Origin: Escherichia phage vB_EcoS-UDF157lw
Sequence record: OQ243221
Direction: 5' to 3' (one strand)
DNA: 46,604 bases
The notes beneath the pieces were generated by a model, which was given only the letters and a program-made list of their open reading frames with translations, had not been told where the DNA came from and made no database searches. Each line of letters starts with the position of its first letter. Position 1 is the first letter of the stretch. Shown piece after piece: positions 236 through 46,604 of the stretch. The position numbers and the translations under genes are program-made.

Positions 236-435
236 AAATTTCTATTTTTATTCCTACACTGTAGGAATTGTACTACCTTGTAGGAAAATATAAGGGGATA
301 TAGCTAGAACCCCCTCATCTATATGTAGACGCACGTAGACGCCTGTACACACCCAGCAACGATGCGGCATGCAGGGCAAAAAGCGTATCAATTTTAAAAT
401 AAACAAAAAAATACATTTATAGACACGTAAATCTT

Positions 436-459
436 TGCTATAGTCATTTCATCGAAACG
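436..459 (+). promoter_or_regulatory. Extended -10 promoter-like element (TGcTATAGT, 436-444) followed by conserved leader CATCGAAACGA (449-459) upstream of first early gene
   Basis: Read directly: ttTGcTATAGTcatttCATCGAAACGAGG then RBS aacgagagga and ATG at 494. No recognisable -35. Confidence 0.45.
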
Positions 460-493: not shown

Positions 494-1036
494 ATGAGCA
501 AAACGACCTTAGGTGAAGTAATTCGATTCATGGCTAAAAAGGCACTCCAGTCAGAAGATAAGGAGTTTAAGGTTCCAGTTCGAGATATTTACCGACAAAT
601 TAGAGGTCATGATTACCCGGAAATGGAGACTGATGATAAAACCGGGGATATTATCAACCTTGGAGAGCGGAAGTTGAGTGAGTTAAAGAACTCATACATT
701 CATAATACATTGTCACGAATGAGAGAGTTGCGTGAGGCTAAGTATATCGCCCGTTATCAATTCATCTGGATTGATGCGGATGGTGAAGATACCACGCCCC
801 GCCAGTATGATGGCGATGGTGCTGATAAATACCTGCTAATCCATCTCACCGAGGGGGTTAAGGAGCCAAAAGCAAAACAAAGAGAGAAAGAAGAAAAGGA
901 GCGGGCTGTTATTGAGAAGTTCAAATCTCGCTTGCTTAAGTTATCACCTAACGTACTGGATTTTGAAGGTGATGAGCTGACTGGCGCAGTTAAGGCTATC
1001 CGCATGTATCAAGAGATGATCAAGGAGTTTAACTAA
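494..1036 (+). CDS. Hypothetical early protein (180 aa), charged/Lys-Glu-rich C-terminal half
   Basis: ORF with GAGAGGA RBS 7 nt upstream; first gene after the AT-rich leader; no motif recognised. Confidence 0.6.
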   Translation: MSKTTLGEVIRFMAKKALQSEDKEFKVPVRDIYRQIRGHDYPEMETDDKTGDIINLGERKLSELKNSYIHNTLSRMRELREAKYIARYQFIWIDADGEDTTPRQYDGDGADKYLLIHLTEGVKEPKAKQREKEEKERAVIEKFKSRLLKLSPNVLDFEGDELTGAVKAIRMYQEMIKEFN

Positions 1037-1596
1037 TGTTTGATTTCGACGAAGATAAGTTAACTGATGACCAGGTGATGGAAGTCGCCAGGCAAGATAA
1101 CCTGCCGCCACTTCGTGTGGCAATCAATACTAATGGATACCGCCAATCATTCAATTTCTGGCCCAGCGCCGAAGAGATGCTGTGCGTCAAGTTGAGCTAC
1201 AAATACGGCGTCGTAGTGAGCATGATTAGACGCCAGGGCTGGAATGGAGTGGTTGGCATTCGATCTCTATACGAGGCAATCCGAAAGGTCCAGCCATTCG
1301 TCTGGCGCGAAGGGATTATGCATGACCTGACAAATAACATCATCCCAGAACTACAGGAGGCGGGAATTGTTTGCCTCATTGGCGATAAGATTTATGTTCA
1401 TCCGGCCCTGGTTGAGATGGATAAGGACGACGTGCAAAACTGGTGCAGTCAGTGCCGATCCGACGCGCCACGCTCAAACTACGTGCCACCGCAAACAACA
1501 ATCCATGGCTATGATGCCGATGAGGTGGAGAAGGCCATACAGTTCTACCGGAAAGCGAAAGCTCTCCTGAATGGTGAATATAGCACAAATTGCTAA
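1036..1596 (+). CDS. Truncated paralogue of the replication P-loop ATPase (N- and C-terminal domains only, 186 aa)
   Basis: Start overlaps previous stop (TAATG). N-terminus MFDFDEDKLTDDQVMEVARQDNLPPLRVAINTNGYRQS matches N-terminus of the 42577-44160 minus-strand protein; C-terminal GVVGIRSLYEAIRKVQPF...CLIGDKIYVHP matches its C-terminus; the ATPase core is absent. Confidence 0.7.
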   Translation: MFDFDEDKLTDDQVMEVARQDNLPPLRVAINTNGYRQSFNFWPSAEEMLCVKLSYKYGVVVSMIRRQGWNGVVGIRSLYEAIRKVQPFVWREGIMHDLTNNIIPELQEAGIVCLIGDKIYVHPALVEMDKDDVQNWCSQCRSDAPRSNYVPPQTTIHGYDADEVEKAIQFYRKAKALLNGEYSTNC

Positions 1597-3770: not shown

Positions 3771-3846
3771 GTTCTGCTGGCGTAACAGGATAACGCAGAG
3801 ACCTCCTAAGTCTCAGTTACTGGTTCGAGTCCAGTGCGGAACACCA
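3771..3846 (+). tRNA. tRNA-Arg (anticodon CCU, reads AGG)
   Basis: Hand-folded cloverleaf: acceptor GTTCTGC/GCGGAAC (one G-U), D-arm GCGT/ACGC with GG in loop, anticodon stem GAGAC/GTCTC with loop CTCCTAA (U33, CCT, A37), T-arm ACTGG-TTCGAGT-CCAGT, discriminator A, encoded CCA. Confidence 0.85.
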
Positions 3847-33608: not shown

Positions 33609-34532
33609 CTATGAATGCTTATCTATCAGATCTTGCGGGTTATATAACCTTCTTTCAAGCCCCATCTTGAAATTGCCACCTTTAGGTATTACGACTTTTA
33701 GACCTCTATCATCAGCAACATAAAGCGACTCCTTTTCATCAGCTAAGCAAGCTATCCTGCACTCTTTATTCCTGAGTTCATAAGCAACCATTTCTAAGTT
33801 GTGGTGAGTTAGGCAGTCGTAAGTTGTCCTTTTTGTGCATGCCGATACATGTAGTGCGTTAATCCAGCCAACAGTGAGGTAGATAGCGCCATCACTACAT
33901 TTACTTACCGGAACAACCGAGCCGCGAGTGTAGTCTTTTGCGAGATATGACTCATTACCCTCTTCATCTATAAACTTTACGTTACAAGGCTCATCTGATA
34001 AACCATCCTCGTAAACCATAAAGCATTGCTCGGCTATAATTTCTTCTCCAGACCCCTTTATTCCTATTTTGTATTCCCGTTCAGTAATAATTGCTTCAAA
34101 TCTCGTAAGCTGTGTCATTTCTACAGACTTGGTGCGAGATATTACCTTCTCGATTGATTCAATGGATGCCTGAGCGCCAAAGTTATATCTCTGAACTCGG
34201 CTCGCTGCTTTGTTTGCCTTCACTATGATTTCGACGGGAGTCAAATTAAGCCAGTCGCCAAGTAAATTTATAGCTTCCGCAAATCTAAGGCCGGAACATT
34301 TCATAACCCATCCTATTCCTGAGTCACTGCCGCACTTAGAGCAAACTGCGGCCCCATTACCTTTTTCGCTTCCTATTTCGTCTGTAAACCTGAATCTGTC
34401 AGTACCAAAGCAATAAGGGCACGGCCCGTGCTTCTTGCTAAGGTGTCTATCATTCCAACCAAGCTCCTTTGCATAAAATGATTTCCACAATCCAGCCATT
34501 TTAGGTATTACTTCATTCTTGTCGTAATTCAT
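33609..34532 (-). CDS. Putative DNA primase (zinc-ribbon type, 307 aa)
   Basis: CPYCFG...CSKCG zinc-binding motif near the N-terminus; acidic motif YVADDRG; located in the replication module. Confidence 0.5.
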   Translation of the reverse strand: MNYDKNEVIPKMAGLWKSFYAKELGWNDRHLSKKHGPCPYCFGTDRFRFTDEIGSEKGNGAAVCSKCGSDSGIGWVMKCSGLRFAEAINLLGDWLNLTPVEIIVKANKAASRVQRYNFGAQASIESIEKVISRTKSVEMTQLTRFEAIITEREYKIGIKGSGEEIIAEQCFMVYEDGLSDEPCNVKFIDEEGNESYLAKDYTRGSVVPVSKCSDGAIYLTVGWINALHVSACTKRTTYDCLTHHNLEMVAYELRNKECRIACLADEKESLYVADDRGLKVVIPKGGNFKMGLERRLYNPQDLIDKHS

Positions 34533-42223: not shown

Positions 42224-42238
42224 TGGCTCCTTTATTTT
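42208..42238. terminator. Bidirectional terminator between convergent rightward and leftward operons
   Basis: GGAGCC-taat-GGCTCC flanked by AAAAAA upstream and TTTATTTT downstream. Confidence 0.65.
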
Positions 42239-42572
42239 ACGCGAACAGTTGGTCGTCTGTCATTTCTTTTATGGTCATCATCTCATTGGTGTACTTATCA
42301 CTCTCACCTCCGAGGCACCTAAAGCTAAAACCGAATGGTCGCTTCGTGCTTCCTTTGCTCCAGTAACTGCCATTAACTCCATCGATGTAACCTTCAGTCA
42401 TGCATCTTGCCAGAAACTCCTTTGACGCAGATGATGCAAAGTAACGCGCATTAACTCCAGCTGCCTTAGCCATTCTTTCACATTCTTTGTGGCGGTAAAT
42501 GAATACCGCCAGGTGCTGCCTGTTAAACTTTTCGTAGCTCTCGCAGAACTTGAACACATCAAGGATGAACAT
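42237..42572 (-). CDS. Hypothetical protein (111 aa)
   Basis: ORF in track, last gene of the leftward operon. Confidence 0.5.
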   Translation of the reverse strand: MFILDVFKFCESYEKFNRQHLAVFIYRHKECERMAKAAGVNARYFASSASKEFLARCMTEGYIDGVNGSYWSKGSTKRPFGFSFRCLGGESDKYTNEMMTIKEMTDDQLFA

Positions 42573-42576
42573 TTAA

Positions 42577-44160
42577 TTACCCCAGCAGCCGTGGATTGAT
42601 ATATACCTTGTCACCAATCAGGCAGGTATAGTTTTTATCATCAAGCATCGGGAGTAAGTGGTCTTTAATTTTAGCCATAACACCAGCCTGTGACTCGAAA
42701 GGTCGAACCTTACGCGCAGCTTCATAAAGTGAACGCAAACCCACAACTCCTTTACTGTTCTTGCCTTGCTTGATAAGGATATCAATTAACTTGTTCATCT
42801 CAGCGTTATCGCCAGCATGACCAGCTGCGTTAGCAGAAGATAAGTAAGTCTTGCTAAGTTCTTCAAACATCAATAAAGCCTCCTGCATCGTTTCCAGTCC
42901 AATCTCCCTGGACTTCTGCGGACTACCGCCATTTGGATTAAACCAGTTACGTATGGTGTGAAGAACGGCAGCAAGGCGAATAACCTGTTTATCCATTTTA
43001 CCTAGTGCGCCACGGAGCATTGTGTGTGAATACTTGCCGCCATCCGCAAGGTGTGGCTCCATTTCCTGTCGAGCACGGTTAAGGTGCTTCATTGCTGAGT
43101 TACTAATAGTCAACTTCACATCTTGCTCACTCATAATTTCATGAACAAGACGGAAGTAATCAGCCTTCAACGCTCCGTCAATCGGCTCATATGTTGACTC
43201 GCCATTATCATCGACGAAAACACGCTCACCAAGGAATGACTTTTCACGCACAAGCAAGAAACGTTCGGATACACCAATACCGCGAGCACCAGCATTCATG
43301 ATTGCGACTATTGTTTCATCCTGCGCAATTACAGAAATACACCCCATAGCAATAAAGCTCATGTTGTTCTCTGCGTTCGCACGCGCGATAGATACGTTAC
43401 CAGCATCCCAGGCCTTAAGTACCAGTTCGCTGTTTGTTTTCTTTGTTCCATCACCATAGGTCATGCCCAGCAGTGAGTTGACGCTCGTCGCCTCATCCGA
43501 GATGACAGCGAAGCTACCCTGACGATGGTTAATGCGTGCCAGACCTTCAGGAGTAGTATCAGATACAGGGAATACGATGTCGCAAAGTTTCTCGAGCTTA
43601 TCTTCCAGCTCCTCCTTCTCCTCAAACAAACCAGCCATCTCAGAAGGCGACTTCTCCTGCTTCATTTCTTTAGCCAGAGCCGACAGCTTGGCCATAATCT
43701 TTTTACGGTCACGCTTACGCAGATCGTTTAGTCGCTCAGTCTCTGCAATCATTGGAGCAAGAGACAGCGAGTTAATGGCAGATTTACCAGTTGATGGAGG
43801 CTGGCTGGTCACTACATACAGTGATGTTGGTTGTTGAGTTCCGTGATACTCAACCGTAAAGCGACCTAACATAGCTGCCGAGATGCAACCAAGGAAGTGC
43901 ATATAAGCAGATGATTCAGGAAACTGAACAGAACGAGCAATGTTGCTTGATAGTTTGCCAACTACATCATAGTCGTTACCAAGCGAGATAACAGGATACT
44001 TGTCGCCAGTAGAATCAATCTCAACCGGAGCTTTCCAGAATGATGCGCTCTGGCGATAACCGTTCGCATTAATAGCAACACGTAAAGGAGGTAATCCATC
44101 CTGAGCGGCAACAGCCATTACTTGTTCAACAGTCAATTTGTCATCATTAAAATCAAACAT
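42577..44160 (-). CDS. Putative replication-associated P-loop NTPase (helicase/primase-associated, 527 aa)
   Basis: Deviant Walker A PPSTGKS and Walker B-like FAVISDEATS; RBS GAGAGAG before ATG 44160; N- and C-termini are paralogous to the 1036-1596 protein. Confidence 0.6.
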   Translation of the reverse strand: MFDFNDDKLTVEQVMAVAAQDGLPPLRVAINANGYRQSASFWKAPVEIDSTGDKYPVISLGNDYDVVGKLSSNIARSVQFPESSAYMHFLGCISAAMLGRFTVEYHGTQQPTSLYVVTSQPPSTGKSAINSLSLAPMIAETERLNDLRKRDRKKIMAKLSALAKEMKQEKSPSEMAGLFEEKEELEDKLEKLCDIVFPVSDTTPEGLARINHRQGSFAVISDEATSVNSLLGMTYGDGTKKTNSELVLKAWDAGNVSIARANAENNMSFIAMGCISVIAQDETIVAIMNAGARGIGVSERFLLVREKSFLGERVFVDDNGESTYEPIDGALKADYFRLVHEIMSEQDVKLTISNSAMKHLNRARQEMEPHLADGGKYSHTMLRGALGKMDKQVIRLAAVLHTIRNWFNPNGGSPQKSREIGLETMQEALLMFEELSKTYLSSANAAGHAGDNAEMNKLIDILIKQGKNSKGVVGLRSLYEAARKVRPFESQAGVMAKIKDHLLPMLDDKNYTCLIGDKVYINPRLLG

Positions 44161-44203
44161 TATTATCATCTCTCTCTAAATGCCCCCGAAGGGGCTTGAC
44201 TAT

Positions 44204-46389: not shown

Positions 46390-46417
46390 ATCTATCTCCT
46401 CGTTGTTGATGAGTTTA

Positions 46418-46460
46418 CTATAGCCTTGCCATCCCCATTTTTCTTTAGCAAAAAGTGCTA
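46418..46460 (-). promoter_or_regulatory. Composite promoter-like element (minus): TAGCACtttttGCTAAA, 21 nt, TATAGT, leader CATCAACAACGAGGAG
   Basis: Reverse complement read directly; drives the leftward small-gene operon. Confidence 0.5.
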
Positions 46461-46604
46461 TTCGTCAGATTTATGGATTGTTGCAGGCATTGCGATGATT
46501 AGCATGACTATTACACATAAAGCAATATTTCATCGAGTGCAACAGGTTTATTGATTGTTGCCAGTTTGGCAATGATGGATGGATGGATTGAATGAAAGGA
46601 GGTT

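What the first reader, a model, noticed from the sequence alone, without database searches (positions are those of the whole stretch)
1036..1596. A second, core-less copy of the replication ATPase: N- and C-terminal domains fused without the NTPase module
The 186-aa protein shares a near-identical N-terminal stretch of about 45 aa (MFDF.DDKLT..QVM.VA.QD.LPPLRVAIN.NGYRQS) and a C-terminal stretch of about 60 aa (GVVG.RSLYEA.RKV.PF...CLIGDK.Y..P) with the 527-aa P-loop protein on the opposite strand at 42577-44160, but lacks the central ATPase region. The nucleotide sequences are diverged at synonymous positions, so this is an old paralogue that has been maintained, not a recent duplication artefact. 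Such a protein could compete for the same DNA or partner sites as the full-length enzyme and act as a regulator or inhibitor of replication initiation.
Basis: seen in the sequence. Interest (0 to 1): 0.7.

Follow-up and report, generated by a model that had tools for sequence, protein, structure and literature searches.

The report
Helicase-derived protein lacking its motor
A T1-like E. coli phage carries a small early gene that keeps only the two end-pieces of its own MCM-like replication helicase; it is real, selected, fast-evolving and often lost, so it is probably an optional helicase mimic rather than a core replication part.

Summary
The window is a complete Rogunavirus (T1-like, Drexlerviridae) genome. 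ORF 1036-1596 (186 aa, PHROG 7327, function unknown) matches the 527-aa DUF3987 helicase (42577-44160, minus strand) in two blocks: residues 1-48 (69% identity, E 4e-20) and residues 60-126 against helicase 458-526 (45%, E 5e-19). It lacks the whole ATPase core, about 400 residues, including Walker A. Third-codon positions are saturated (29-30% identity).

The short gene arose within one helicase clade and added a 60-aa tail of its own. It is the second gene of the rightward, presumably early, operon and is translationally coupled to a DUF7174 gene. It is under purifying selection (dN/dS about 0.2). It also diverges much more than the helicase, swaps modules by recombination, and has been deleted or disrupted in several phages (Rogue1 and four metagenome-derived viral contigs).

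The "replication regulator" role remains an inference. An accessory mimic of the helicase periphery is the best reading; which partner it binds is unknown.

The parts
1036..1596 (+). Short helicase paralogue gene (186 aa plus stop); PHROG 7327; equivalent to AHP42 gp64 and JK06 JK_46
   Evidence: ORF. PHROG 7327 hit at E 1e-98 over the full length. 288 homologues of 164-191 aa. AF2 model pLDDT 83.6.
1036..1179 (+). N-module (aa 1-48): acidic three-helix unit shared with the helicase N-terminus; motif P..RVAI.ANGY....W
   Evidence: 69% identity to helicase 1-48. Helices 11-21, 25-33 and 36-41 occur at identical positions in both AF2 models. Invariant residues. Mean net charge about -3.
1198..1413 (+). 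Winged-helix module (aa 55-126), homologous to the helicase C-terminal winged helix
1414..1593 (+). Family-specific tail (aa 127-186): helix 130-143, disordered linker 143-153, conserved helix 161-178 (YDADEVEKAI.FYRKAK)
   Evidence: No match to the helicase, to the gene downstream of the helicase, or to any other reading frame of the window. Y159, E163, V164 and A167 are invariant. Removed by nonsense codons in L007 and L011.
494..1036 (+). Upstream DUF7174 gene (180 aa), first gene of the rightward operon; its stop overlaps the short gene's start (TAATG)
   Evidence: PF23796 at E 2.4e-44. Overlap and AAGGAG Shine-Dalgarno at 1022-1027. Same arrangement in L026, L027 and L028.
416..444 (+). 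Promoter-like site upstream of the DUF7174/short-gene operon (consensus match only)
   Evidence: TTTATA-17-TATAGT with TG. The number of such sites does not exceed the shuffled expectation.
42577..44160 (-). Full-length DUF3987 (SF6, MCM-like) replicative helicase, 527 aa; equivalent to AHP42 gp54
44017..44160 (-). Helicase N-module (aa 1-48)
42862..43920 (-). DUF3987 AAA+ ATPase core (aa 81-433; Walker A PPSTGKS at residues 121-127), absent from the short protein
42580..42804 (-). Helicase C-terminal winged helix (aa 453-527)
   Evidence: A C-terminal wHTH is described for DUF3987 helicases in PMC4889955.
1..493 (.). Right half of the roughly 700-bp non-coding region between the two divergent operons. 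AT-rich (14-16% GC at 136-186), with inverted repeat 251-264/273-286.
46390..46604 (.). Left half of the same non-coding region, contiguous on the circular or concatemeric map; (GATG)n at 46574-46590
33609..34532 (-). Stand-alone primase with a primase-helicase zinc ribbon; a candidate shared partner (inference only)
   Evidence: PF08273 at E 3.2e-10. A DUF3987 helicase binds its primase in another system (PMC11724360).

Best explanation
Shown:
- The 186-aa protein is a domain-deleted paralogue of the phage's own MCM-like (DUF3987/SF6) replicative helicase.
- It arose within one helicase clade of the T1-like phages by duplication and loss of about 400 residues, the whole AAA+ core.
- It keeps the acidic three-helix N-module and the basic C-terminal winged helix, and it gained a 60-aa tail with a conserved helix.
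- It sits second in the rightward operon at the genome end and is translationally coupled to a DUF7174 gene.
- It is under purifying selection but is dispensable and recombines module by module.

Inferred:
- It cannot bind or hydrolyse ATP or form the helicase ring, so it can only do what the helicase's peripheral modules do.
- In MCM-type helicases the peripheral modules dock loading or partner proteins, or DNA, rather than unwind.
- I therefore propose that it acts as a free, non-catalytic mimic of the helicase periphery. It would occupy the same partner and so tune, most likely restrain or redirect, helicase recruitment early in infection.
- Candidate partners are the stand-alone zinc-ribbon primase, a host replisome factor, or DNA.
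- The tail would supply a family-specific extra contact.
- It is an optional modulator, not a core replication component.
For: - Homology of both modules.
- Identical secondary-structure elements in the two AF2 models: N helices 11-21, 25-33 and 36-41 in both. The winged helix is H55-67/E72-74/H75-82/H94-108/E112-115/E118-121 in the short protein and H451-468/E472-474/H475-482/H494-508/E512-515/E518-521 in the helicase.
- A DUF3987 helicase has measured 5'-3' helicase activity and binds its primase (PMC11724360). The primase here is a separate gene.
- The short protein has no Walker A and no DUF3987 hit.
- The direction is helicase to short gene. The short N-module is 59-62% identical to helicases of its own clade, 45% to the 72%-identity clade and 35% to the T1-type clade. 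The modules are present in all 903 helicase-bearing phage records, but the short gene in only about 102.
- Selection: dN/dS is 0.17-0.29 at large distances, and there are 288 homologues at E <= 0.001.
- Conserved position and translational coupling.
- The modules occur in no other protein architecture among 1.84 billion representatives.
Against: - No binding or competition has been shown, and the tools could not model complexes.
- There is no cognate co-variation. Identity between a short protein and its own helicase equals identity to non-cognate helicases (N 0.59 vs 0.60; WH 0.48 vs 0.47).
- Helicases in these genomes are 90-100% identical while the short proteins are 41-100% identical.
- In the MINF/GMLY variants the shared blocks fall to 30-38% identity with the cognate helicase. 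This is hard to reconcile with strict sharing of one partner surface.
- Repeated loss shows that any effect on replication is not essential.
- dN/dS is 0.5-0.8 among the closest relatives.
- No iterons or obvious binding sites were found in the adjacent non-coding region.
Confidence: 0.4

Rival explanations
1. Conflict protein. The helicase-like surface serves as a decoy for a bacterial defence that senses the phage helicase, or as a dominant-negative poison of the helicase of co-infecting T1-like phages (interference or superinfection exclusion). The tail would be the effector contact.
For: The gene has the hallmarks of conflict genes:
- It is accessory and clade-restricted.
- Its position suggests early expression.
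- It is far more divergent than the neighbouring core helicase.
- It is mosaic, with recombination breakpoints between modules.
- It is lost repeatedly.
- MINF-type N-modules are marginally closer to helicases of other clades (46-48%) than to the cognate clade (40-42%).
Against: - No hit in PADLOC.
- No literature links T1-like helicases to a defence trigger in the searches made.
- The helicases of carriers are nearly identical, so a poison would also hit the phage's own enzyme.
- The 46-48% versus 40-42% difference is within noise for 48 residues.
Confidence: 0.25
2. Positive adaptor or loader. The protein bridges the helicase (through homotypic N-N or WH-WH contacts) to DNA or to the DUF7174 protein, acting like a lambda O/P-style or Cdt1-style loading factor at the nearby AT-rich region.
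For: - It is adjacent to and translationally coupled with DUF7174, at the edge of a 700-bp AT-rich non-coding region flanked on the other side by the helicase operon.
- Its winged-helix fold is closest to ORC/Cdc6 winged-helix domains.
- The winged helix carries a net positive charge in most family members.
Against: - Rogue1 keeps DUF7174 and the helicase but has deleted this gene.
- T1 and about 90% of phages with this helicase lack it.
- No iterons were found.
- The winged helix of the window protein has a net charge of only about +2 (my count from the sequence; family range +1 to +8).
Confidence: 0.15
3. Neofunctionalised DNA-binding regulator. The winged helix now binds operator DNA, for example the inverted repeat at 251-286, and controls early transcription independently of the helicase.
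For: - The winged-helix fold is also shared with MarR, Fur and SarA regulators.
- An inverted repeat and a promoter-like site lie upstream of its operon.
- Divergence from the helicase winged helix, down to 30% identity, fits a new specificity.
Against: - The putative recognition helix (94-108, IMHDLTNNIIPELQE) is acidic or neutral.
- The whole protein has pI 5.1.
- The N-module stays helicase-like (69%) under purifying selection, which is unexplained by this model.
Confidence: 0.12
4. Decaying relic of a partial helicase duplication with no present function.
For: Deletion in Rogue1, nonsense codons in L007, L010 and L011, and frameshifts in L014. dN/dS is 0.5-0.8 among the nearest relatives.
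Against: - Synonymous sites are saturated against the helicase while 69% and 45% amino-acid identity is kept.
- dN/dS is about 0.2 over long distances.
- There are about ten 50%-identity clusters of full-length (164-185 aa) proteins and 20 invariant residues, including some in the novel tail.
- The AF2 model is confident.
Confidence: 0.08

Closest known systems
DUF3987 / SF6 MCM-like phage and mobile-element replicative helicases (e.g. AgaPH; Kazlauskas et al. 2016, PMC4889955; PMC11724360)
   Same: The short protein's two modules are homologous to the N-terminal module and C-terminal winged helix of the window's own DUF3987 helicase.
   Different: It lacks the defining AAA+ core, has no PF13148 hit and no Walker A or B. 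It carries an unrelated 60-aa tail. It is therefore derived from this family but is not a member of it.
HSV-1 OBPC (UL8.5), the C-terminal DNA-binding part of the UL9 origin-binding helicase, made as a separate product and reported to inhibit origin-dependent replication (from my own knowledge; not retrieved)
   Same: A virus makes a helicase-less version of its replication helicase that keeps a peripheral binding domain. This is the functional analogy behind the competitor model.
   Different: OBPC is an in-frame nested product of the same gene and keeps only the C-terminus, and UL9 is an SF2 helicase. Here the product comes from a separate, anciently diverged gene on the opposite strand that keeps both termini of an SF6 helicase and adds a new tail. 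No inhibition has been shown.
Winged-helix appendages of MCM2-7 and of ORC/Cdc6/Cdt1 (helicase-loading contacts; roles cited from my own knowledge)
   Different: There is no detectable sequence relationship. Eukaryotic and archaeal winged-helix domains are parts of AAA+ proteins or of Cdt1, whereas this is a free-standing phage protein. Its binding partners are unknown.
PHROG 7327 (function unknown)
   Same: Full-length match at E 1e-98. This is the family the gene belongs to.
   Different: The PHROG carries no annotation. Its relationship to the helicase is not recorded in the PHROG annotation and did not appear in the papers I searched.

Membership tests
DUF3987 / SF6 helicase (applied to the 527-aa protein) | Pfam PF13148 match above the gathering score | tested here: met
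   E 2.5e-42, 145.8 bits against a cut-off of 27, residues 81-433.
DUF3987 / SF6 helicase (applied to the 527-aa protein) | Walker A P-loop and MCM-like AAA+ fold | tested here: met
DUF3987 / SF6 helicase (applied to the 527-aa protein) | [quoted passage not shown] | tested here: met
   AF2 elements H451-468, E472-474, H475-482, H494-508, E512-515 and E518-521. The feature is described in PMC4889955.
DUF3987 / SF6 helicase (applied to the 527-aa protein) | ATP-dependent DNA unwinding | not testable with these tools
   Shown only for a distant family member, AgaPH (PMC11724360).
DUF3987 / SF6 helicase (applied to the 186-aa protein) | Presence of the DUF3987 ATPase domain | tested here: not met
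   No Pfam family at E <= 1. No G....GK[ST] motif. Alignment to the helicase skips about residues 49-457.
PHROG 7327 (applied to the 186-aa protein) | Full-length profile match | tested here: met
   E 1e-98, protein residues 1-181 on profile positions 1-179 of 179.
Winged-helix domain (ORC/Cdc6/MCM type) | H1-S1-H2-H3-S2-S3 topology with a beta-hairpin wing | tested here: met
Winged-helix domain (ORC/Cdc6/MCM type) | DNA or partner binding through the winged helix | not testable with these tools
   Only indirect evidence: mean net charge +5 across the family, about +2 in the window protein by my count, and an acidic helix 3.
Truncated replication-protein regulators (OBPC-like) | Shares the binding domain(s) of the full-length replication protein but lacks the catalytic core | tested here: met
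Truncated replication-protein regulators (OBPC-like) | Encoded as a nested or in-frame product of the same gene | tested here: not met
   It is a separate gene on the opposite strand, about 3.5 kb away on the circular map, with saturated synonymous divergence.
Truncated replication-protein regulators (OBPC-like) | Competes with, or inhibits, the full-length protein | not testable with these tools
   Needs biochemistry or genetics.
Known anti-phage defence or anti-defence proteins | Match to a PADLOC model | tested here: not met
   No families at E <= 1 for the short protein, the DUF7174 protein or the helicase.

The most novel reading that the evidence does not exclude
The short protein is a phage-encoded molecular mimic of the exposed appendages of an MCM-like helicase, used in conflict rather than housekeeping. 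It would act either as a decoy that absorbs a host immune sensor aimed at the helicase, or as a dominant-negative weapon against the helicases of competing T1-like phages. Its N-module, winged helix and tail would be exchanged by recombination as interchangeable specificity cassettes.
Probability: 0.2. Interest if true: 0.75.

Novelty: new variant of a known kind. Interest (0 to 1): 0.5.

Why it matters
How MCM-like (DUF3987/SF6) helicases of phages and mobile elements are recruited and controlled is essentially unknown. No origin or loader is defined for T1-like phages (PMC11447400).

This gene is a natural construct that isolates exactly the two peripheral modules of such a helicase. That makes their function directly testable by asking what the 186-aa protein binds and what its loss or over-expression does.

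Natural comparison material already exists: an in-frame deletion (Rogue1), tail-less nonsense alleles, and N-module or winged-helix swap variants.

If it proves to be a competitor or decoy, it would be, as far as I know, the first reported phage example of a stand-alone core-less helicase paralogue used as a mimic. If it does nothing measurable, it remains a clear case of gene birth by internal deletion of a duplicated core gene.

Tried and rejected
1. Cognate co-variation test. Identity between a short protein and the helicase of the same genome was compared with identity to other helicases for 15 pairs. There was no difference, so I dropped the idea of lineage-specific co-evolution.
2. Tail origin. 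tblastn extended the short-helicase alignment past the helicase stop codon. Inspecting that frame shows several stops. The tail has no similarity to the downstream 111-aa gene or to any reading frame of the window. I treat the extension as noise.
3. Iterons or an origin next to the gene. Only short chance-level repeats, one imperfect inverted repeat and AT-rich runs were found. The count of promoter-like sites does not exceed shuffled controls.
4. Other architectures carrying the modules. A profile search of 1.84 billion representatives gave only the short family, fragments and 515-530-aa helicases.
5. Database annotation. Pfam, PADLOC and PDB sequence searches gave nothing for the short protein. 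BFVD returned only family members and helicases. The afdb50 fold library was unavailable.
6. Literature. There are no papers mentioning DUF7174. Papers on Drexlerviridae defence and escape, on TLS and on daunorubicin do not mention this gene. OBPC could not be retrieved.
7. Whether MINF-type N-modules were re-sampled from helicases of other clades. The signal is weak (46-48% vs 40-42%) and I left the question open.
8. Contact between the N-module and the winged helix in the models could not be examined, because coordinates and PAE are not returned.

Full report
**What the window is.** The 46.6-kb window is a complete genome of a T1-like siphovirus of the genus Rogunavirus (Drexlerviridae). It is 96-98% identical over long stretches to phages BECP10, AHP42 and JK06. 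The window starts, like the T1 reference record, about 0.5 kb upstream of the first rightward gene. The gene at 1036-1596 and the helicase at 42577-44160 therefore look far apart in the linear window. On the circular or concatemeric map they are about 3.5 kb apart. They lie in two divergent operons that flank a roughly 700-bp non-coding, partly very AT-rich region (46390-46604 plus 1-493).

**Check of the observation.**
- Both ORFs are as described.
- BLASTP gives two collinear blocks. Short 1-48 matches helicase 1-48 at 69% identity, E 4e-20. Short 60-126 matches helicase 458-526 at 45% identity, E 5e-19.
- Profile searches agree in both directions. The 'DNA helicase' PHROG 2373 hits the short protein at 1.3e-20. 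The short family's PHROG 7327 hits the helicase at 2.9e-53.
- The helicase has a DUF3987 domain at residues 81-433 (E 2.5e-42) and the Walker A motif PPSTGKS. The short protein has no Pfam hit and no P-loop.
- Nucleotide identity in the shared blocks is 61% and 54%. Third-codon-position identity is only 29-30%. Synonymous sites are saturated, and amino-acid similarity has been held by selection.

**Structure.**
- With a 34-sequence alignment, AlphaFold2 models the short protein at pLDDT 83.6 and pTM 0.68, with residues 10-135 above 90.
- It predicts a small helical N-module (helices 11-21, 25-33, 36-41, 45-49). This is followed by a canonical winged helix (H55-67, strand 72-74, H75-82, H94-108, hairpin 112-115/118-121), then a helix, a disordered linker and a terminal helix at 161-178.
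- The helicase model (pLDDT 88.8, pTM 0.86) has N-module helices at exactly the same residues. Its C-terminal winged helix has the same element order (H451-468 ... E518-521).
- This matches the literature. DUF3987 proteins are SF6 helicases distantly related to MCM with a C-terminal wHTH (PMC4889955). One member is a demonstrated 5'-3' helicase that binds its primase (PMC11724360).

**Origin and distribution.**
- The short family is real and diverse. It has 288 homologues of about 164-191 aa, mostly on 45-52-kb contigs, forming about ten clusters at 50% identity.
- A profile search of 1.84 billion representative proteins finds the two modules only in this family and in the 515-530-aa helicases, and in no other architecture.
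- The helicase occurs in 903 deposited phage genomes at 80% coverage or more. The short gene occurs in about 102.
- T1 itself lacks the short gene.
- The short N-module is most similar (59-62%) to helicases of its own clade, those at least 84% identical to the window's. It is 45% identical to the 72% clade and 35% identical to the T1-type clade.
- The direction is therefore helicase to short gene. The event happened inside one sub-lineage of Drexlerviridae and was followed by loss of about residues 49-452.
- phiEB49-type members still align to helicase 436-526 at 61-73% identity and carry a different tail.

**Evolutionary behaviour.**
- Among 15 genomes where both genes could be paired, helicases are 90-100% identical to the window's. 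The short proteins are only 41-100% identical.
- There is no cognate-specific co-variation. Diagonal and off-diagonal identities are equal.
- The gene is mosaic. Against phage e4/1c, the N-module is nearly identical (pS 0.04) while the winged helix is saturated (pS 0.52). Against contig L026 the pattern is the reverse (N pS 0.58, WH pS 0.02). Recombination therefore shuffles N-module, winged helix and tail as cassettes.
- Over long distances dN/dS is 0.17-0.29, which indicates purifying selection. Among the nearest relatives it is 0.5-0.8.
- The gene has been inactivated repeatedly. Rogue1 retains only a 28-codon in-frame deletion remnant.
- L007 and L011 carry independent nonsense codons at about codon 140, just before the tail. 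L010 has a stop at codon 37. L014 is frameshifted.
- Overall the gene is selected but dispensable.

**Context.**
- The gene is always the second gene of the rightward operon. Its ATG overlaps the stop of a DUF7174 gene (TAATG), and a good Shine-Dalgarno sequence (AAGGAG) lies 8 nt upstream.
- T1's first gene is a weak DUF7174 relative, so DUF7174 is the conserved element and the short gene is an add-on.
- By analogy with the T1 record's 2.8-kb terminal repeat, the gene probably lies in the terminally redundant genome end. This is an inference.
- The phage has no DNA polymerase gene. It has a stand-alone primase with a primase-helicase zinc ribbon, an SNF2-type helicase, SSB, Erf and an exonuclease.
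- The adjacent non-coding region has no iterons. The TLS re-annotation paper likewise reports no recognisable origin in T1-like phages.

**How it most likely works.**
- Shown: the protein has the helicase's two appendages and nothing of its motor. The winged helix is net basic across the family (+5 on average, about +2 in this phage by my count). The N-module is acidic.
- Inferred: in MCM-type helicases such appendages mediate loading or partner contacts and regulation rather than unwinding (my own knowledge of MCM winged-helix domains). In the only studied DUF3987 helicase the N-terminal domain accompanies primase binding.
- The most economical model is a free, non-catalytic mimic of the helicase periphery. 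It would bind the same partner (primase, host replisome factor or DNA) and thereby modulate helicase recruitment. The conserved tail would add a family-specific contact.
- I give this model about 0.4. The sign of the effect, inhibitor or helper, is unknown.
- Its accessory, fast-evolving, mosaic and frequently lost character fits a conflict role almost as well: a decoy for a host sensor, or interference with rival phages. I give that 0.25.
- A positive loader role (0.15), an independent transcription-regulator role (0.12) and a functionless relic (0.08) are less likely, for the reasons listed with each rival.

**Comparison with what is known.**
- The protein belongs to PHROG 7327 (function unknown).
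- It is derived from the DUF3987/SF6 helicase family but is not a member, because it fails the defining ATPase-domain test.
- Functionally, the closest analogy I know is HSV-1 OBPC, a helicase-less C-terminal product of the UL9 origin-binding helicase that inhibits replication. This is from memory and could not be retrieved here.
- OBPC is a nested product of the same gene from an unrelated helicase superfamily. Here a separate, anciently diverged paralogue retains both termini and adds a tail.
- I found no paper describing this relationship in T1-like phages.

**Verdict.** This is a real and cleanly documented case of a core-less helicase paralogue: a new variant of a known kind of viral trick, with its mechanism unproven. 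Interest is moderate (0.5). It offers a ready-made handle on the unknown function of the peripheral modules of phage MCM-like helicases, and natural deletion, truncation and module-swap alleles are available for testing.

Noticed in passing
window 46390-46604 and 1-493: A roughly 700-bp non-coding region lies between the two divergent operons. GC falls to 14-16% at 136-186, with TATTA/TATATA runs. There is an imperfect inverted repeat at 251-264/273-286 (TTCCTACACTGTAG / CTACCTTGTAGGAA), (GATG)4 at 46574-46590, and a promoter-like site at 416-444. It may hold early promoters and operators, pac or an origin. No iterons were found.
   Followed up: partly
L007 8671-9192 and L011 10001-10528: Two different phage lineages carry independent nonsense codons at adjacent codons (about 140-141) of the short gene, just before the tail. 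The downstream frame is still conserved. BFVD also holds a 140-aa version (phage DTL) and a 139-aa entry (phiKP26). This may reflect recent truncation, or a tail-less form may be tolerated or favoured.
   Followed up: partly
L029 (Rogue1) 1103-1189: The annotated 28-aa 'hypothetical protein' gp04 is an in-frame deletion remnant of the short gene. The N-terminal 13 residues are joined to the last 15 residues of a phiEB49-type tail, apparently across a DEQ(I/V) microhomology.
   Followed up: yes
window 494-1036; L030 (T1) 539-1111: The DUF7174 gene is the conserved first gene of the rightward operon. T1 ST77 matches DUF7174 only weakly (E 2e-4). It also matches anti-CRISPR AcrF2 weakly (E 5e-3). 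Both are below the Pfam cut-offs, and the second is probably chance. Function unknown.
   Followed up: partly
short-gene homologues in L004 (e4/1c), L026, L027: The modules are exchanged independently between phages: MFDF- or MINF-type N-modules combine with GVVG- or GMLY-type winged helices. Recombination breakpoints fall at the module borders.
   Followed up: yes
window 3771-3846: tRNA-Arg (anticodon CCU) lies just upstream of the small terminase gene, as in AHP42 and Rogue1.
   Followed up: no
window 44160-44169: The helicase ORF has an in-frame ATG three codons upstream (MIIMFDF...). Homologue alignment favours the MFDF start at 44160.
   Followed up: partly
window 42237-42572 (-): A 111-aa gene (PHROG 2794, function unknown; labelled 'YdbL' in JK06) always follows the helicase, 4 nt after its stop. 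It is unrelated to the short protein's tail.
   Followed up: partly
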